A stretch of 64,000 nucleotides of DNA, from assembly GCA_963793305.1 (NCBI GenBank), contig CAWBZV010000012.1, positions 1 through 64,000 of the forward strand. The letters are read 5' to 3'. Positions 8,297 through 38,302 of this stretch are shown piece after piece. The position numbers were made by a program, and so were the translations under genes. A model generated the notes under the pieces. It saw only the letters and a list, made by a program, of their open reading frames with translations. It had not been told where the DNA came from and did not search any database. Positions within the stretch are counted from its first letter, which is position 1, and the number at the start of each line of letters is the position of its first letter. This stretch comes from an uncultured Gemmatimonadales bacterium. Lineage in GTDB: Bacteria; Gemmatimonadota; Gemmatimonadetes; Gemmatimonadales; Gemmatimonadaceae.

Positions 8297-10826
8297 TCAG
8301 GCATTGACGGTGTAGTACTTGTCCCGGTAGCCCTGGAACCGATAGTTGCCATCGTAGGCCGCATCCCGAGCAAAATCGACGTCGTTCAGCACGGCACCAA
8401 GCACCGGTGCACGGACGTGACGCAGTTGCTCCATGGCGAACGACAATGCTTGCGTCGCCGTTACGCCCGACCGCGCGATCACGAGAACGCCATCGGCATG
8501 CGCCGAGAGCAGTGCGGCGTCCGTCACGATATTGATCGGTGGCGAGTCGATAATGATGCGGTCGTAGTACGACGGCAGACGCTCCAGGAGCTCTTGCATT
8601 GCCGGCGAGTCGAGCAGCGCGGCCGGCTGCGCAGGCAACGAACCGGTCGGCAAATAATGCAGTTCCCCTCCTCTGCCCAGCGATACACCTCGAACAGCGG
8701 CCTCGAGCAACGTCGTTCCAGCAATGACATCACTCAAACCCGGCGTACGCGAGGCGCCAAACACGCGGTTGATAATCCCGCGGCGCAGGTCCGCATCGAC
8801 CAGTAACACCCGGTGGCCGCGAGTGACAAGCGTAACCGCGAGATTGACCGCACTGGTGGTTTTGCCATCCCCCGACAACGGGCTCGTGATCACCAATGTC
8901 TTGAGCACGCTCTCGCCACGTGGCCGCAAGAACGCGAGGTTGGTCTGCAGGCGACTATATGCCTCGGCCACGGCGCTCCGGGCATCCGGCTCTGCGCCGT
9001 CGAGCACCTCGCCGTTGGTTGTCCCGTTCAACTCGGCGTCGAGCGCCGCAATGCGTTGCCGGTGCGACAACCGCCGGCGTCCGTGCCCACCCGTCGCGCT
9101 CGGATCGCCGAGCTCGCCGGAGAACCGTAGACGTGTGGTCAACGCGTTGCCTGAGATACGTGGAATGAGCCCCAGCACGGGCGCACCCGTCGCCGCGAGC
9201 ACATCGGCCCGTGTATGGACCGTGTGGTCGCGCGAATCACGCGCCAGCGCGAAGCCGAGCCCCACCAGCAATCCCAGGAGCACCGAGACCGCCAGATAGA
9301 GCGGCGGTTTCGGGCGGATCGGCTCGACCGGAATGACGGCCGGGTCCATGAGCTGCAACGTCGGGTCATCCACGGCCTCGGCGACTTGCGCCTCTTTGAG
9401 CCGGGTCTGCAACGCGACGTAGATCGTGTCGAGCACTCTCGGCGCCCGCGACAGTCGGGCGTATTGCGTCTCGACGGCCGGAATCACGTTCATTCGGTGC
9501 GAGTACTGCCCGAGGACGCTGTCGTACGAGCTGACCTGCTCGGTCAAGCCGGCGAGGTACGTCGTCGCGATCGTGCGGATTTGATCCTCGACCTGATGCT
9601 CGCGCTCGGTGAGTGCGAGCACGTCGGGGTCTTTCGGTGTGCGACGGGTCAGGAGCGTGGTGCGCTCATCATCGATCGTCGACAACGAATGCAGCAGCTC
9701 GGTCGACGCTTGGTTCTTGAGCAGCGTCGGGAACGCGATCAGCCGCCGGTAGGGCGATGGATCGTCCGGCTTCTGGTGCGCGGCCTCGAGCGTTACCTGG
9801 CGCATCAGTGTCGTCAGTGCACCCTTCTCGGCGTCCAGATCCGCGCGCTCGGCCTGGATGTTCGCCGCGTGCTGAACATCGGCCTGCGCCTCATCCGGCA
9901 GGCTTACGACATTGTGCTGCTCGCGGAACGTCTGCAGCGCGGCGTCGGACGTATTCAGCTCGTTGGAGAGCGAGTCCAGTTGCTCGCGCAGAATTTTCAC
10001 GGTGCTCCGTGCCTGCACCTTCTGCATCGAACGTCTTGTCGATAATGAACAGGTGGGTGAGGACGTTGGGCACGTCACGCGTGAGCTCCGGGTCCTTCCC
10101 GCGATAGGTCACCGTCATGACATCGGCGTCGCGCACGGGACGCTCGACCTTCCGATGCTTGTCAAAGACCTGGTACGCGTCCTCGCGCGTTTGCAGTTCG
10201 ATATGGATCTTGCCCGGCCCTTCCTTCGCGGTCCGCGGGCGCAGGACGGCCATAATGCCGGGGACGTTGAGTTGCCCGCCGGGCTGGACCACACCGAGCA
10301 CTTTGCCATCGCCATTCGTGACCGTGAATCCACCACCAGCCGAGTCGCGGCGTGTCAGGTCGTACGCCGCCGAATCAGCCAGCGGGTCGACGTGAAAGTA
10401 GCTGAACACGGCGCTGCGCGGGACGCGCGTGGGCTTGACGATGGCGCGCAGCCCGAGCGAATCGATCGTGGCTTCGGCCAGTCGGCGACTTTGGAGCACC
10501 GAGACCTCGGTCGCAACCTCGCGATCGTTCGTGACCTGATCGAACAGGCTCGGCATATCCATCTTCTGCGACAGGACGCGAACCGCCGCGGTCGCCTCGT
10601 ATGTCGGCGTCATGACAATGCACAACGCGCCAACGAGGCCAACGATGATGACCATCGACGCGAGCACGACCCACTTCTGACGACGGATCAGATTCAAGAT
10701 GCCGTCGATCGAGAGCAGATCTTCATCGCGGCGCGAGGGCACTGGCCCCGACCAGGGTGGCGTCTGGTACGGCCCGAGGCTCGTACCGTTTCCGTTGCTG
10801 CCGTTCGGTGTGATGGAGTGGCTCAT
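8297..10826 (-). CDS. wzc: Wzc-type polysaccharide co-polymerase/tyrosine autokinase (one +1 frameshift near 10037, probably a sequence error)
   Basis: N part in ORF 9891..10910 (start MSHSIT at 10826, TAATG overlap), C part in ORF 8297..10078; Walker A SGDGKTT, VDADLRR, IIIDSPP and Tyr-rich tail; removing one base joins them into ~842 aa. Confidence 0.88.
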
Positions 10827-31057: not shown

Positions 31058-33584
31058 ATGCGACTGCGCTGGATTCTGATCGTGTTGGCCTGTCTCTGCG
31101 GCGCTTCAGCTCGGGCGCAGCAGAGGACGATATCCACGGATTCGACTGTGCTGACGGCGCCGGTCGGCACGCTGTCGGAGCTCCTCAACGGTCGCGTGCC
31201 GGGACTCGCCGTGTCGTCCAGCGATGGGAGCACCGGCGCGGGGTCCACCGTGTCCGTGCGCAGCGGCGGCCAGCCGTTGCTCGTGATCGACGGGGTGCGC
31301 GCCGACAACGATCCGGGTCTGCATAATCTGGCGGCGCCAGACCACCCGGCTCCCGCACGATTCGACGATCTCGACCCATCCGAGATCGCTACCATCCAAA
31401 TCCTTCCGGGCCCGTCCGCGACAGCGCTCTACGGACCTGATGCCGGCGACGGCGTCATCCTCGTCACCACCAAGCACGCCTCGTCAAAGGGCAGAGGTTT
31501 CCTCACGGCAGAAGGCGCGCAGGTCACGACGCCCATCCGCCTGCCCGACAACTATTACGCCAGGGGCCACCAGGGCGGCACCCCCGTACAGTGCTTGACG
31601 TACCTGCGCGCCGCGGGTCAGTGCACGCTCGACAGCGTGACGCATTTCAACCCGCTGCCCCCGACGCTCGAAACCGTCTACCAGGACCGCCTCGGCGCCT
31701 CCGTCGAGGGCACGTCGCCGACCCAGCGCCTGTGGCTCGGCGGACACTACGCCAATGATCCTGGCACGCTGCAGATGCCGGGACCGGATGCGTCGATCTA
31801 CACGAACGAGTACGGCTTCGGCCCGGCGCGGTCGCACACGCTGCCGAACCGCCAGCAGGAGGGCGACATCCGCGGATCCTTCGGCATCGATCTCGCGAAG
31901 ACCACCGATGCCGAGGTCACGCTCGGCTACGTCAGCCGATACCAGCGCGATCCGTCGCCCGCCACATTGCTCCAGAGTGCCGCCGCGGGACCTGGGTACG
32001 CCGGGGTGAACGACGGGTGGCAGGACTCCGTGAACCGGCCATGGAATGACTTCGCCAACGTCGCGCGTGAGAACGCACGCCACGTGAACGGCGGCGTCAC
32101 CATCAACTGGCAGCCCAAGCCGATCTGGGCGACGCACATCACGGGTGGCGTCGACGCGGTCGACCAGACGTTCGGCGACATGAGCATCCTGGCGCCATCA
32201 CTGGGGTCCGACAGCGCCATCACCTACGATCATACGCGTCTCACCCAGTACACGGCGGACGCCGGCGCGACCCTGACGGTGGGCGACTCGGTCGCCCGAT
32301 CGCAGACGACATTCGGGCTGCAGTATCTGGCCGAGCACTTCCGGGACTCGTCGTATCGGTTCGCCGGATTTCCCGGGACGTTCAACCAAGGCTTCGAGAA
32401 TATCGCGGCCGGCAGCCAGGATCGAAGCGCTTACGCGCGCGAGGTGGCGACGCTCGCCAATCATTTCGTGCTCGCCGGCGGCGCGCGGTACGACGACCAG
32501 CGGCTCCACGCGGCCCATCTCAACTCGTCGACACTCAACCCCTCGTTCGACGTCAACTGGGCCATCCTCGGTTCGGTGGCGGACCCTCGCCTTCGTATTC
32601 GCGGCGCGATGGGGCAGACCACGACGCTCCTCGACGCCCGGCAGCTTGGCTCGGTGGCTGCCCTGGATGTAGCGCAGCTCGGGTGTCTGCCGTTTACCGC
32701 GTGCTCGCCACCGCCGATCCATCCCGAGCGCCAACGCGAGTGGGAGACGGGGTTCGATGCATCACTCCCGCATGACCGGTGGACGATCGGGCTCTCGCTC
32801 TACTCGAAGCGTAGCATTGGTGTGCGTGTGCCCTTTGACACCATACTGGTTCCACAGGCCATCACATCCGATCGCGGCGTGGAGTTCGAAACCCGAGCCA
32901 GGCTGATCGATCGGCCGACGTTCGGCTGGAACTTCGCGTTCGACGCGTCGCAGAACACGGATAAGGTGCTTCGCATGAGCAGTCTCGCGAGCCATCTCTC
33001 TATCGGCGATCCGGTCGGCGCCGTGGTTGGCCATCCACTCGCGGGCGTGTGGCAAAACACGTACACGTACAGCGACGCCAATCACGACGGCGTGATCGAG
33101 CCGAGCGAGGTCCACGTCGACGGTACGACGACGCTCGGTCAGTATGTCGGGTCCGCTGTGCCAACGCATTCTCGCATCCGCATCGACGTTGATCGAGATG
33201 TTCCATCGCCAACTGCGGCTGGCGACGCTGTTCGACTATCGAGGGGGATACGTGCTTCCCGATCTCTCGCTCGAAGAGCACTACGGCTTGGGAGCGCGTG
33301 CGATCAATGCGCCTGGTGCATTGCTCGCCCAACAGGCGGCCATCCTCGCCATTAGCCAGGCCGGAGATCCACCAATGCAGCGCGTCTCAGCGCTGCGCTG
33401 GCGCGAGTTATCGGCGACGGTCGGGACGCCCGGGGTGCACACCGTGCAATTGACGCTCGCGGTCCGGAACCTCAGGCTCTGGACGCATTACCAGGGCGAT
33501 CCCGATTGGCTGCTCACGCCCGTGCAGGAGGAGCAATTGCCCGAGCCGAGGACGTGGCTGCTACGGCTGACCGCCGGGTTCTGA
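31058..33584 (+). CDS. SusC-like TonB-dependent receptor, paralog 2 (+1 frameshift near 33170)
   Basis: PLLVIDGVR, DLDPSEIATIQILPGPSATALYG, PERQREWETGFD, LFDYRGG, RNLRLWTHY, LRLTAGF; joins to ~841 aa. Confidence 0.87.
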
Positions 33585-35360: not shown

Positions 35361-35783
35361 CTAGGCCGGTCGCGACCGGCCGTCGGCCGCGGCGCAGCGC
35401 TCGCGGACGATGGCCGACAATTCCTCGATATCGAACGGCTTGAGGAGCACCGGGCACCCAGTGGCTTGCAGCGTGGCGTGCGTCGAGGCCGCGATATCGC
35501 CCGTAATGAAGATCGTGCGCTCTTTGAGGTGCGGCTGCACACTCTGCGCGTACTCGAAGAGCAGGTCGCCGCGCACGTCCGGGATCCGATAGTCGAGGAT
35601 GAGGCAATCGATCTGCTTCTCGCCGAGCGTGCGTTCGGCGGCCTCGCCAGACGAAGCGACGTTGACGACGTAGCCGTCCCGCATCAGCAGCGTCGCGAAT
35701 GCCAGTCGGATCGACGGCTCATCGTCGACGAGCAGGATGCGCAGCCCGCCGCCGCGGCGCGGCTTATCCGCGTCCGGCAGCAC
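35361..35783 (-). CDS. Single-domain response regulator (CheY-like receiver)
   Basis: ILLVDDE, LILDYRIPD (phospho-Asp), FITG, LLKPF all intact; no output domain. Confidence 0.92.
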   Translation of the reverse strand: MLPDADKPRRGGGLRILLVDDEPSIRLAFATLLMRDGYVVNVASSGEAAERTLGEKQIDCLILDYRIPDVRGDLLFEYAQSVQPHLKERTIFITGDIAASTHATLQATGCPVLLKPFDIEELSAIVRERCAAADGRSRPA

Positions 35784-36600
35784 GGCGGAGAATGGTGAGG
35801 ACGGGTGGCGCGGCTGGCGCGCGGCCGACGACGAGCTTGGCGAGGGACTCGGCGACGCATTGATCGGGCGTGACGATCCGTCGCCACGCCGCGAACCGGC
35901 GGCCGCTCATCTGGCGCACGTGGGCGGCGAAGATGCGCGGGTCGGCGTATCCCAACCGCAGCGCGACGTTGGACATTGAGAGCGCGGGATTCTGGGCGTA
36001 CTGGTAGCCGCGGAGCACGCGCGCCGCGAGCACCAGCGTGCGGGCCGGGGCGAGTCCCAAGCGTTCCAGCCAGCGGTTGACGTTGCGCCGCGGCATCTCG
36101 GCCGCGACCGCGATGTCCGTCGCGCTGCGGAACCGCGTGGGCCGGCGAAACAACAACTCCACCGCGCCGACCAGCGCGGGCGGGGCGTCGCCGGCGACGA
36201 GCGCGACGCGGAGGGCGCCCAAGATGCGCTCCTCGATCCCGGTCGCGCGCAGCGTCTCCAGCCGATCGCGGAATCGCGTCGGCTCATCGTCGAAGCCGCG
36301 GAGGACGCAGTGGCGCACGCCGAGCTCGCCGAGCGAGAGCATCGCGCGCGTCGATTCGGCGGTGATGTTCGTGTACACCAGGACGGCGACGGCCGGGAAC
36401 CCAGCGCGGATCGCGCGCACCGCTTCGGTATCAGCTGATCCATCGACGCAGGGATCGACGACGGTCACCTCGACGGGTCTGGCCCGCAGCACGCCGGCCA
36501 GGGCCGGCCAACTCGACGCGGCCAGCACGGTGTGCTCGTCCCCGGCGACTATGCGGAGGTGGGACAACATGGCTGGAGTGAGGCGGGCGACTACGAGCAT
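35764..36600 (-). CDS. AraC-type HTH regulator with degenerate receiver-like N-terminal domain
   Basis: Start ~36600 (MLVVARL); N-term VVDP...VLVYT; C-term SATDIAVAAEMPRRNVNRWL and SMSNVALRLGYADPRIFAAHVRQMSG (AraC double HTH). Confidence 0.75.
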   Translation of the reverse strand: MLVVARLTPAMLSHLRIVAGDEHTVLAASSWPALAGVLRARPVEVTVVDPCVDGSADTEAVRAIRAGFPAVAVLVYTNITAESTRAMLSLGELGVRHCVLRGFDDEPTRFRDRLETLRATGIEERILGALRVALVAGDAPPALVGAVELLFRRPTRFRSATDIAVAAEMPRRNVNRWLERLGLAPARTLVLAARVLRGYQYAQNPALSMSNVALRLGYADPRIFAAHVRQMSGRRFAAWRRIVTPDQCVAESLAKLVVGRAPAAPPVLTILRRAAGRG

Positions 36601-36720
36601 GGGGCCCGCCGCCCGAATGCACCGTCCTTTGTCCCGAATCGCGATTGGCACGACAGATGGAGCAGCCGAGTATAGGTGCACCAAATACGGCTCAGCTGCC
36701 CAATCGCTTCCGAGGTGTAC

Positions 36721-36915
36721 ATGCTCGTTCGCTTCACACTCGCCGCCGCGCTCCTTGCTCTCGCCACTGCCTGCACCAGTCCGACCGCGCCGGTAGCGAA
36801 CTCGAACAGCGCAGTGCACGGCGGCATGTCTGGCGGTGGGGTAATGCCAGGATCCGGCGGCCACACGACCACGACAACACCGGACGACGGCGTGATGCCG
36901 GGGTCCGGCGGTTGA
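36721..36915 (+). CDS. 64-aa exported (lipo)peptide precursor with two GVMPGSGG repeats
   Basis: GAGGTG RBS before ATG 36721; hydrophobic signal ending in lipobox-like LATAC; GVMPGSGG at 36838-36861 and 36889-36912 with only synonymous differences. Confidence 0.8.
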   Translation: MLVRFTLAAALLALATACTSPTAPVANSNSAVHGGMSGGGVMPGSGGHTTTTTPDDGVMPGSGG

Positions 36916-36994
36916 ACGGCTAAATACCTCGCGGGCCGCTCCATGTCCGTCGGTTCGAGTACCTGATCTCCGTACTGCACGTGGCCGTTGCCGG

Positions 36995-38302
36995 CTAACC
37001 GCCGGCCGCGGCGAGTAGTCGCGCACCGTGTATTGCTTCAGCCACCCGGTTCACCCGAGCCGGCCGGGGGGACGCAATCGTGTGTCGTGGCGGCACCAAG
37101 GCGCGACCAGCGCTGAGAGCCGCCAATGCTGCCTGCGCGCGACGGAGAATATCGGCCAGTCCGTACCGTTGCGCGACGGTGACCGCCCGGTCGAACGCCG
37201 CCGCGGCGAGTGACGGCTGGCCGAACGCCAAGTGGCCCTGCCCCACGTAATAGTCGAATTCCGTCGCGAGTGACGGCGGGAGGCCGATGCCGCCCAACGC
37301 GCGCCGATGCCGCATGAAATCGAGCTCGCGCCGCTCGATCGTCGCGATCTCAATCATATTGATCGTGGCCGCCCACCGCGTGAACGGCTCTTGCGCGGTC
37401 TCGGCGAGCAACGCGTTGGCTTCGCGCGCCACGTCGGGATAGCCGGCCTGCAAGAGGAGTGTCGCCAGTGACACGAGGACGCGCTCGCGCTCGATCACAT
37501 CGGTCATGGCGGTCCACGCTTCATACGCGTAGGTGATCGCATCGTCCGGGTGGCCGAGCTGCGCAGCGACGAGGGAGAGGTCGTGAAACGCCATCGCGCG
37601 CACCTCGCCACAGTCGGTTCCGGTCGCGCCCGCAATGATCGCGGCGAGACGCTCATGCGCCACCGACAGATCGCCCCGTCCGACTGAGATCTTCGCTTCG
37701 CCGAGGTTCGCCCGCAACACGCTACGCTCATCACCTCGCGTCGCGGCGAGCTTGCCAGCGGCGCGGTACGCCTGCAGGGCGCGTTCGACGTCGCCCATCG
37801 TGCGGTAGCACACGCCGAGATAGATCGCCGTGGCGGTCGCGACCTCGCCATCCAGCGGCCCGATGACGCCATCGCCGACGTACGAATCCCAGACGATGGC
37901 GTAGACGTTGGCGGCGAGACCCCACGCCGAGCGGATGTGGAGCGCGCGGGCGTAGGCGAACAATGGCGCGACGAGGCGTGGGGGCTCGCCATCGTGCGCG
38001 GCAACGATCCGCGCGACGATCGAGCTCAGGAGCCGGCGCTCGGCGCCTTTCGTCGGCAGCTCCGCGATCACGCTTTGGACCGCGTCGACCTCATACTTGA
38101 AGGCCTTCTCTTGGGCACGCAGCGTGGCGAGCGAAGATTGCGCGCCATTGCCGTACTCGCTCCACGCATTGAGGAGGCGGAGCGCGACCAGGCCGGCACG
38201 GGCGGCACGCCATGCATTGCTGGCTTCGTCGGTCGTCGCCAGGACGTTGAAGAACGCGCGATGGCGCAGCGTCCCGTTTGTATCAATCATAGGTAGCACC
38301 AT
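36995..38302 (-). CDS. Tetratricopeptide-repeat (all-helical) protein
   Basis: TPR-like units (LGVCYRTMGDVERALQAYRAA; AFHDLSLVAAQLGHPDDAITYAYEA; VGQGHLAFGQPSLAAAAFDRA); no signal peptide or TM; start 38302 or 38290. Confidence 0.75.
   Translation of the reverse strand: MVLPMIDTNGTLRHRAFFNVLATTDEASNAWRAARAGLVALRLLNAWSEYGNGAQSSLATLRAQEKAFKYEVDAVQSVIAELPTKGAERRLLSSIVARIVAAHDGEPPRLVAPLFAYARALHIRSAWGLAANVYAIVWDSYVGDGVIGPLDGEVATATAIYLGVCYRTMGDVERALQAYRAAGKLAATRGDERSVLRANLGEAKISVGRGDLSVAHERLAAIIAGATGTDCGEVRAMAFHDLSLVAAQLGHPDDAITYAYEAWTAMTDVIERERVLVSLATLLLQAGYPDVAREANALLAETAQEPFTRWAATINMIEIATIERRELDFMRHRRALGGIGLPPSLATEFDYYVGQGHLAFGQPSLAAAAFDRAVTVAQRYGLADILRRAQAALAALSAGRALVPPRHTIASPRPARVNRVAEAIHGARLLAAAGG

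What the first reader, a model, noticed from the sequence alone, without database searches (positions are those of the whole stretch)
36721..36915. Small ORF with a twice-encoded GVMPGSGG core under apparent purifying selection
Seen: the protein is MLVRFTLAAALLALATAC-TSPTAPVANSNSAVHGGMSGG-GVMPGSGG-HTTTTTPDD-GVMPGSGG-stop. The two DNA copies (ggg gta atg cca gga tcc ggc ggc vs ggc gtg atg ccg ggg tcc ggc ggt) differ at 5 of 8 codons, all at synonymous third positions. A degenerate GGMSGGG precedes them, and the last copy is flush with the C terminus. Inference: the amino-acid sequence is the selected unit, as in multi-core pheromone or RiPP precursors. The lipobox suggests membrane tethering before proteolytic release.
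Basis: partly seen in the sequence, partly recalled or inferred. Interest (0 to 1): 0.8.

Follow-up and report, generated by a model that had tools for sequence, protein, structure and literature searches.

The report
Swappable peptide signal with paired receptor
This tiny gene in a soil bacterium with two membranes makes a membrane-anchored precursor carrying two copies of a short peptide, and close relatives have exchanged that peptide together with the matching part of the neighbouring receptor-like gene, as expected of a strain-specific chemical 'dialect' of a kind described so far in Gram-positive bacteria.

Summary
The ORF is real: 64 aa, lipobox Cys18, GVMPGSGG twice, 5 synonymous and 0 replacement differences. 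It is the small gene of a four-gene cassette in a Gemmatimonadaceae genome. A convergent TPR protein has a Rap-like fold and no HTH. A divergent pseudo-receiver/AraC regulator and a single-domain receiver complete it. Ten orthologous alleles keep the frame, RBS and repeat layout but carry nine different cores. A block of about 1.2 kb (peptide tail plus TPR residues ~110-431) differs between relatives whose AraC is 98-99% identical. Core similarity tracks that TPR part (Mantel r=0.55, p=0.0002), not AraC (r=0.06). All 30 top family loci have a convergent lipobox peptide (control 27 of 798). A 21-bp tandem repeat lies about 110 nt upstream of the peptide in 22 of 23 held-out AraC-linked loci. 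Best reading (0.7): a Rap-Phr-like peptide signal and receptor with swappable pherotypes in a diderm phylum. Processing, import, receptor binding and target are all inferred. Descent from Rap is not established. No paper on this system was found in eight searches. Two earlier scan notes describe the cassette in other genomes; the allele swap was not found among them.

The parts
36721..36915 (+). 64-aa lipoprotein-type propeptide gene (P0001)
   Evidence: frame and RBS kept in 10 of 10 orthologous alleles
36712..36716 (+). Shine-Dalgarno GAGGT
   Evidence: present in all 10 alleles
36721..36774 (+). signal peptide (aa 1-17) and lipobox Cys18, followed by the family motif T-S/N-P-T-A-P
   Evidence: pattern match; same motif in the 9 other family peptides of the genome; SignalP not available
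36838..36861 (+). core copy 1, GVMPGSGG (aa 40-47)
36889..36912 (+). core copy 2, GVMPGSGG (aa 57-64), flush with the stop
36995..38290 (-). 431-aa TPR protein, candidate cytoplasmic receptor, convergent with the peptide gene (79-nt gap). Model: N-terminal helical bundle (25-99), about 7 helix pairs, no HTH
   Evidence: Pfam TPR_2 and TPR_MalT weak; AF2 pLDDT 94.9; VIA Z 22.4 to Rap of pLS20, tied with LGN 22.3
35764..36600 (-). 278-aa regulator, divergent from the peptide gene: receiver-fold N-domain lacking the acidic pair and the Lys, plus AraC-type HTH_18
35361..35783 (-). single-domain response regulator (canonical receiver), fourth gene of the cassette
   Evidence: PF00072; beside the AraC gene in most family loci
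36608..36642 (+). 21-bp-spaced direct repeat 113 nt upstream of the ATG, candidate AraC-type operator (diverged copy)
   Evidence: matrix trained on 15 loci of other genera; window score 5.6, p=0.011, same position as in training loci; 22 of 23 held-out AraC-linked loci above the 99th background percentile
36750..37970 (.). exchanged allele block: peptide tail, intergenic gap and TPR codons from about 110 to the end (edges approximate)
   Evidence: identity to G001, L034 and L035 falls from mostly 90-100% outside to 47-92% inside; AU tests

Best explanation
A peptide signal and receptor cassette that works like Rap-Phr. (1) Shown: the gene is conserved, coding, and always paired with a convergent TPR gene. 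(2) Inferred: the precursor is exported by Sec, lipidated at Cys18, cut by signal peptidase II and, with Thr at +2, probably sorted to the outer membrane. Proteases then release the 8-residue core, twice per precursor. (3) Inferred: the core enters the cytoplasm of the same or neighbouring cells by an Opp/Dpp or PTR2 transporter and binds the TPR groove. (4) Inferred: the TPR protein has no DNA-binding domain, so its N-terminal helical bundle acts on a protein, most likely holding the pseudo-receiver/AraC regulator (or the single receiver) inactive until peptide binds. (5) Inferred: the freed AraC protein binds the 21-bp tandem repeat upstream of the peptide gene, giving positive feedback. (6) Shown at sequence level: the core and the TPR repeats are replaced together as one block between close relatives, producing strain-specific alleles on a constant regulator backbone. 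The tail-to-tail layout puts the two variable parts side by side.
For: Pairing: 10 of 16 regex hits for the precursor pattern in the genome are family members and all 10 end within 83 nt of a TPR paralog; 30 of 30 top family loci carry one (26 were new loci) against 27 of 798 control genes. Alleles: nine cores in ten alleles, each repeated 2-4 times. First versus last copy: 32 synonymous, 1 replacement difference (biased, since cores were defined by identity). Co-variation: core similarity versus TPR 113-330 r=0.55, p=0.0002; versus AraC synonymous identity r=0.06, p=0.34; versus TPR 1-112 r=0.16, p=0.12; partial on AraC and local synonymous identity r=0.52, p=0.0008 (10 alleles). L035 (GVGAGSSG) and G003 (GIGAGSSG) share 74% in TPR 113-330 against 56-68% for G003 with the other eight of the ten alleles, without raised synonymous identity. 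Tree conflict: AU p=3e-6, 2e-4, 3e-61. Fold: the Rap of pLS20 is the top VIA hit over residues 28-379 (Z 22.4, rmsd 7.3, 325 aligned), and phi105 Rap, RapH and RapI are among the top 7. Asn311 is kept in 122 of 136 homologs. 3 of 14 long homologs are fused to a receiver and 1 to a sigma-70 domain. The genome has LspA, LolA, two SBP_bac_5 proteins and a PTR2 transporter. Repeated pheromones, orphan receptors and about 11 paralogs per genome are known Rap-Phr traits (PMC9765709, PMC11343458, PMC5199041).
Against: No experiment shows processing, import, a target or a phenotype. The peptide tail and the TPR 3' part are physically linked, so recombination would move them together without any functional tie; among the 8 close alleles the partial test is not significant (r=0.28, p=0.07). 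The fold match is tied with eukaryotic LGN/Pins (Z 22.3, 21.9), and no Rap is among the 60 shown of 96 profile hits in the PDB. A lipid anchor is not what a freely diffusing signal needs, and the core must cross two membranes. 12 of 22 TPR places in the genome have no family peptide. The operator match in this window is weak (p=0.011), and the two other cassettes of this genome with peptide and AraC lack it (p=0.24-0.25). The AU groups were chosen after the trees were seen.
Confidence: 0.7

Rival explanations
1. Cell-autonomous circuit: the core is cut in the periplasm and re-imported by the same cell, so the TPR protein reads export or envelope-protease activity (a timer or stress gauge), not neighbours.
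For: The lipid anchor and the outer membrane would trap the peptide; Cys18 and the TAP motif are kept family-wide; ten paralogs need distinct cores just to avoid cross-talk.
Against: A purely private signal gives no clear reason for nine alleles at one locus among strains with 94-99% identical AraC, nor for block exchange.
Confidence: 0.11
2. Kin tag or toxin-immunity pair: the lipopeptide is passed by contact or vesicles and harms or marks cells lacking the matching TPR allele.
For: Polymorphic linked pairs moved as a block are typical of such loci (recalled); a lipid anchor suits membrane transfer.
Against: The cores are short, uncharged and Gly-rich, with no toxin family match. A 431-aa Rap-like protein, a dedicated regulator with an upstream tandem site, and 12 TPR places without a peptide fit signalling better.
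Confidence: 0.08
3. The small lipoprotein is a linked passenger (for example a surface glycopeptide or structural lipoprotein) and the TPR protein senses something else.
For: Linkage alone explains co-transfer (close alleles p=0.07); one TPR paralog faces a 144-aa cupredoxin lipoprotein with a similar N-terminus.
Against: Copies within one gene are identical in protein and differ between alleles; pairing is 30 of 30 against 27 of 798; the L035/G003 pair shares core and TPR residues across a deep split.
Confidence: 0.07
4. Multi-core RiPP precursor modified by enzymes encoded elsewhere.
For: Repeated cores; 31 of 54 family peptides have two extra Cys that could close a ring; one TPR/AraC paralog pair sits beside lasso-peptide genes.
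Against: No modifying enzyme among the window neighbours; the leader is a lipoprotein signal peptide, so the core leaves the cytoplasm; the adjacent ADOP permease is missing at the G005 ortholog.
Confidence: 0.04

Closest known systems
Rap-Phr systems of Bacillus and its mobile elements (RRNPPA branch without HTH), especially Rap of pLS20 (PDB 6t3h) and phage Raps with duplicated pheromones (PMC11343458)
   Same: TPR superhelix with an N-terminal helical bundle and no DNA-binding domain; adjacent small exported propeptide with a C-terminal 5-10-residue core, sometimes repeated; many paralogs and orphans per genome; receiver-type proteins as likely targets.
   Different: Diderm host (Gemmatimonadota); lipoprotein signal peptide instead of Sec/SPI; genes tail to tail; linked pseudo-receiver/AraC partner with a tandem upstream site; over half of the family's cores lie in a Cys-Cys loop; alleles arise by block exchange inside the receptor gene, whereas PMC5199041 found no recombination between Rap homologs; sequence homology to Rap not shown.
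Staphylococcus agr and Bacillus comQXP pherotype cassettes (recalled, not read here)
   Same: A hypervariable block spanning the signal precursor and the sensing part of the receptor, between conserved flanks.
   Different: Those use membrane histidine kinases and a modifying enzyme; here the candidate receptor is a soluble TPR protein and no enzyme is linked.
Enterococcus sex pheromones sensed by PrgX (derivation from lipoprotein signal peptides recalled)
   Same: Lipoprotein precursor as the source of a short peptide for a TPR-type receptor.
   Different: There the pheromone comes from the signal peptide; here the end of the signal peptide is constant across alleles and the variable, repeated part is the C-terminal tail.

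Membership tests
RRNPPA / Rap-Phr | 5-9 TPR motifs in a superhelix (PMC9765709) | tested here: met
   AF2 model with about 7 helix pairs after residue 107, pLDDT 94.9; VIA Z 22.4 to 6t3h
RRNPPA / Rap-Phr | N-terminal three-helix bundle and no HTH (Rap subfamily) | tested here: met
   helices 25-47, 54-75, 83-99; alignment to 6t3h starts at model residue 28 / chain residue 9; no HTH in Pfam. Model-level only.
RRNPPA / Rap-Phr | small exported propeptide gene next to the receptor | tested here: met
   79-nt gap, convergent; 30 of 30 family loci versus 27 of 798 controls
RRNPPA / Rap-Phr | Sec/SPI signal peptide (the 'strict' level of RRNPP_detector, PMC10075063) | tested here: not met
   lipobox with Cys18; SPII is admitted only at that tool's 'relaxed' level. 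Pattern test, SignalP not run.
RRNPPA / Rap-Phr | mature pheromone of 5-10 aa, usually C-terminal, at times repeated | tested here: inconclusive
   8-aa repeat flush with the stop fits; the processed form cannot be seen from sequence
RRNPPA / Rap-Phr | sequence homology to Rap/NprR receptors | tested here: inconclusive
   no Rap among 4 phmmer hits or the 60 shown of 96 profile hits; no Rap family in Pfam or NCBIfam for the window protein; fold tie with LGN
RRNPPA / Rap-Phr | allele-specific binding of peptide in the TPR groove | not testable with these tools
   only indirect co-variation of core and TPR 113-330
RRNPPA / Rap-Phr | re-import by oligopeptide permease | tested here: inconclusive
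   two SBP_bac_5 genes and one PTR2 gene in the genome; common genes, no link to the cassette
RRNPPA / Rap-Phr | acts on a response regulator or repressor by protein contact | not tested
   suggested by linked receiver genes and receiver fusions; no direct test made
RRNPPA / Rap-Phr | host in Bacillota (PMC9765709 found its profiles only in Firmicutes among 13,513 genomes) | tested here: not met
   same-genus relatives are titled Gemmatimonadaceae
multi-core RiPP precursor | linked modifying enzyme or RRE | tested here: not met
   none among the window proteins scanned
pheromones cut from lipoprotein signal peptides (Enterococcus type) | specificity resides in the last residues of the signal peptide | tested here: not met
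   LALATAC-type end nearly constant across alleles while the tail varies

The most novel reading that the evidence does not exclude
Gemmatimonadota, diderm soil bacteria, run their own family of cytoplasmic peptide quorum-sensing systems, possibly evolved independently of RRNPPA from a TPR scaffold. Signals are made as outer-membrane lipopeptides (perhaps passed by vesicles or contact), read by an HTH-less TPR anti-activator of a pseudo-receiver/AraC protein with positive feedback, and diversified by swapping a tail-to-tail signal-plus-sensor block. That gives at least nine dialects at this locus and ten parallel channels in this genome.
Probability: 0.5. Interest if true: 0.86.

Novelty: new variant of a known kind. 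Interest (0 to 1): 0.73.

Why it matters
Cytoplasmic peptide-receptor signalling is described as a Bacillota trait (PMC9765709, PMC11343458). A working equivalent in a diderm phylum, with matches in 142 of 301 genomes sampled, would change that view and raise new questions: how a lipid-anchored peptide is released and crosses two membranes, and what ten channels control in one soil bacterium. This locus makes the idea directly testable. Nine natural core/receptor alleles on a near-constant backbone give a ready specificity matrix of 8-residue synthetic peptides against purified TPR proteins, and the tandem site gives a candidate reporter promoter.

Tried and rejected
Complex prediction of the TPR protein (alignment A2) with peptide residues 33-64: verdict 'no answer', score 0.02 against a mark of 0.32, controls not folded; no evidence either way. 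RNA: three soil metatranscriptome runs with 6-8% of words, contigs only. Contigs from relatives cover parts of all four genes, and two span the peptide 5' part into the TPR end with a different middle, i.e. another allele; they cannot show strand, start or transcription. Promoter/terminator scan of 36400-37200: none. Pfam: nothing for the peptide; NCBIfam: one sub-threshold lipoprotein hit. ESM Atlas: unnamed clusters under 0.9 only. Codon-usage score does not separate the + frame (0.6) from the antisense frame sharing third positions (-0.8). No TPR relative found in PLSDB plasmids or IMG/VR with the close alignment A1, so no sign of mobile-element carriage; these searches are narrow. A genome scan with the tandem matrix gave 250 hits at score 9 or more and no clear regulon; three of the top 25 lie within about 2 kb of TPR paralogs. 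A sigma-54-like GG-N10-GC upstream is present by eye in 4 of 10 alleles only, rejected. Rows dropped from the allele statistics: L038 (extraction artefact, near copy of L037) and G004 (AraC off the contig, near copy of G001); L036 and L041 duplicate G005 and G001. The NCBIfam scan of the whole TPR alignment was not obtained. The family Cys count is circular (the pattern required Cys); one search did not require it and found 9 convergent peptides, all with a lipobox Cys.

Full report
OBSERVATION. The ORF 36721-36915(+) is as described: 64 aa, GAGGT four bases before the ATG, lipobox Cys18, GVMPGSGG at aa 40-47 and 57-64. The copies differ at five third positions, all synonymous (P=0.002 under random change). 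An exact 8-aa repeat appeared in 0 of 20000 shuffles of the tail. The antisense frame that shares third positions also repeats an 8-mer, so strand had to be settled with orthologs. The + frame is open with the same RBS in 10 of 10 alleles; that antisense frame has a stop in 2 of 10. GGMSG before the first core is linker: GMSG precedes different cores in G005, L034 and L039.

SURROUNDINGS. Same-genus relatives are titled Gemmatimonadaceae. The peptide gene ends 79 nt from the stop of a convergent 431-aa TPR gene (36995-38290). It is divergent from a 278-aa HTH_18 regulator (35764-36600), which is followed by a single-domain receiver (35361-35783). The regulator's N-domain has a receiver fold (FixJ, HupR and RcsB lead). 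It keeps the beta-3 Asp but lacks the acidic pair and the Lys (canonical residues recalled). No modifying enzyme was found among the 6 and 38 window proteins scanned.

FAMILY. The TPR protein has 27 matches in its own genome, 7-21 in each of 5 same-genus genomes, and matches in 23 of 41 genomes. The profile A2 finds 142 of 301 genomes of the phylum at E<=1e-15, mostly in two families (54 of 69, 72 of 125); only 6 candidates per genome were scored and the weakest matches may be other TPR proteins. In the own genome 10 of 16 pattern hits are family precursors, and all 10 end within 83 nt of a TPR paralog; 12 of the 22 TPR places have none. All 30 best loci have a convergent lipobox peptide within 187 nt (4 were seen before), against 27 of 798 control genes under the same rule. 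Of 54 distinct peptides, 31 have two extra Cys and 9 have an exact repeat of 6 or more residues; all 9 belong to the locus studied here. L035 carries three linear copies and a fourth between two Cys, which suggests that looped and linear cores are two forms of one thing (inference).

ALLELES AND THE SWAPPED BLOCK. Ten orthologous loci carry nine cores: GVMPGSGG x2, GVTTGGGT x2, GVTVGGGT x2 (two loci), GTTV/IGSSG, GVGAGSSG x4 (third copy ends in N), GVVIGTGG x2, GVGLGGST x2, GIGAGSSG x3, GVIIGST x2. G001, L034 and L035 have AraC 98-99% identical to ours and TPR 1-112 88-96% identical, but TPR 113-330 only 70-72% identical; synonymous identity falls from 87-90% in AraC to 57-62% there. DNA identity drops at about 36750 and recovers at about 37970 against all three. 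G001 groups with G000, L034 and L035 on AraC (99/99) but with G005, L039 and L040, which have similar cores, on TPR 113-431 (100/100). AU tests reject the AraC clades on the TPR part (p=3e-6, 2e-4) and the reverse (p=3e-61) (groups chosen after seeing the trees). Core similarity follows TPR 113-330 (r=0.55, p=0.0002), not AraC synonymous identity (r=0.06, p=0.34) or TPR 1-112 (r=0.16, p=0.12). Partialling out AraC and local synonymous identity leaves r=0.52, p=0.0008 for 10 alleles, but r=0.28, p=0.07 for the 8 close ones. Linkage alone therefore is not excluded. The strongest single case is L035/G003: cores 7 of 8 alike, TPR 113-330 74% identical against 56-68% for G003 with the other eight alleles, shared helices around 225-261, synonymous identity at background. 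L038 and G004 were dropped from these statistics; L036 and L041 are duplicates.

RECEPTOR FOLD. The model is confident (pLDDT 94.9, pTM 0.90) and all-helical: a bundle at 25-99, about seven helix pairs from 107, no HTH. The right edge of the swapped block falls at the bundle/repeat boundary. Among 48161 chains VIA ranks the Rap of pLS20 first (Z 22.4, rmsd 7.3, 325 aligned), tied with LGN (22.3) and Pins (21.9), then phi105 Rap and RapH (20.4). Foldseek puts LGN first and the pLS20 Rap and NprR at ranks 18-19. By sequence profile no Rap is among the 60 shown of 96 PDB hits. So it is built like a Rap; descent from Rap is open. Asn311 is kept in 122 of 136 homologs; RRNPPA receptors use Asn to hold peptide backbones (recalled). 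Of 14 long homologs scanned, 3 have a receiver domain and 1 sigma-70 domains.

CANDIDATE OPERATOR. Upstream regions of AraC-linked cassettes in other genera show a 21-bp-spaced direct repeat about 110 nt before the peptide ATG. A matrix trained on 15 such loci (consensus ATGTCACAAAAATG) scores above the 99th background percentile (5.9) in 22 of 23 held-out AraC-linked loci. Two of three held-out loci without a detected AraC also score high; the third is at a contig edge. In the window the best site is at -113 (36608-36642), score 5.6, p=0.011; the other alleles score lower, and the 9 other peptide cassettes of the genome have p=0.04-0.95. Tandem half-sites 21 bp apart are typical of AraC-family activators (recalled). 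Binding is untested.

MECHANISM. Most likely (0.7): export and lipidation (LspA and LolA present), proteolytic release of two cores, uptake by Opp/Dpp or PTR2, binding in the TPR groove, release of the pseudo-receiver/AraC protein, and activation of the peptide promoter. Pairing, allele exchange, folds and the repeat are shown; every biochemical step is inferred. Rivals: private periplasm-to-cytoplasm circuit (0.11), kin tag or toxin-immunity (0.08), passenger lipoprotein (0.07), RiPP (0.04).

LITERATURE. PMC9765709 (abstract, Introduction, Results parts 1-2 of 3): RRNPPA definition, hits only in Firmicutes among 13,513 genomes, repeated pheromones, orphans. PMC11343458 (abstract, Introduction): duplicated pheromones are matured and active. 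PMC5199041 (12 passages): about 11 raps per B. subtilis-group strain, intragenic duplication, no recombination between Rap homologs. PMC10075063 (listing and 6 passages): SPII propeptides are accepted only at the relaxed level. Eight searches listed no paper on this system; Gemmatimonad with RRNPP gave 0 papers. The library lacks most subscription journals, several searches were seen only as top listings, and no supplements were read. Two earlier AI notes of this scan describe the three-gene cassette in other genomes; they are not independent support. A word search for an allele swap among the scan's notes found nothing.

UNPUBLISHED GENOMES. G012 supplied 1 of 15 training sites, 1 of the 30 loci and 1 of the 54 peptides, and counts in the tallies; G086, G125 and G204 count in the tally. 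No sequence of theirs is quoted and no conclusion depends on them.

VERDICT. Real gene; probable Rap-Phr-like signalling cassette with swappable pherotypes in a diderm phylum; new variant of a known kind; interest 0.73.

Noticed in passing
L082:3967-9256 (G000:C5, about 652-657 kb): A TPR paralog with an N-terminal extension and a co-directional pseudo-receiver/AraC paralog sit directly upstream of lasso-peptide genes: PqqD/RRE, Transglut_core3 peptidase, Asn_synthase-type cyclase split across two frames, and a short candidate precursor at about 9140-9256. No lipobox peptide is present, so the pair may regulate the lasso cluster or sense its product.
   Followed up: partly
L084:4545-6273 (G000:C3, about 1331.5-1333.3 kb): A TPR paralog faces a 144-aa cupredoxin lipoprotein whose N-terminus resembles the peptide family, in the position of the peptide gene.
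   Followed up: no
L076:2484-5726 (G000:C3, about 520-523 kb): A peptide/TPR cassette without AraC lies directly behind an ECF sigma factor and a FecR gene; a TPR homolog fused to sigma-70 domains exists (P0068). Sigma factors may be a second target class.
   Followed up: no
G000:C3:1063665-1066090, C3:591796-593167, C9:54238-55525, C5:663711-664800: Several TPR paralogs are split across frames; the C9 one still has its peptide and AraC. Decay or assembly error not distinguished.
   Followed up: no
window:28458-31021 and 31058-33584 (+): Two adjacent SusC-like TonB-dependent receptor genes, each split across reading frames.
   Followed up: no
window:80-11491 (-): Wzy-dependent polysaccharide cluster (Wzy_C, WecG, glycosyltransferases, flippase, sugar transferase, Wzc-like, Wza-like) with a GH10 gene inside.
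   Followed up: no
window:38476-40884 (+): ADOP family duplicated permease (TIGR03434 over cut-off), divergent from the TPR gene; present in G001, missing at the G005 ortholog.
   Followed up: partly
window:52272-56423 (-): About 1400-aa RHS-repeat protein.
   Followed up: no
G000:C5:1270699 (+), C5:1268812 (-), C3:721492 (-), C2:12529, C2:865359: Strong copies of the 21-bp tandem motif elsewhere in the genome, three of them near TPR paralogs; possible regulon members.
   Followed up: partly
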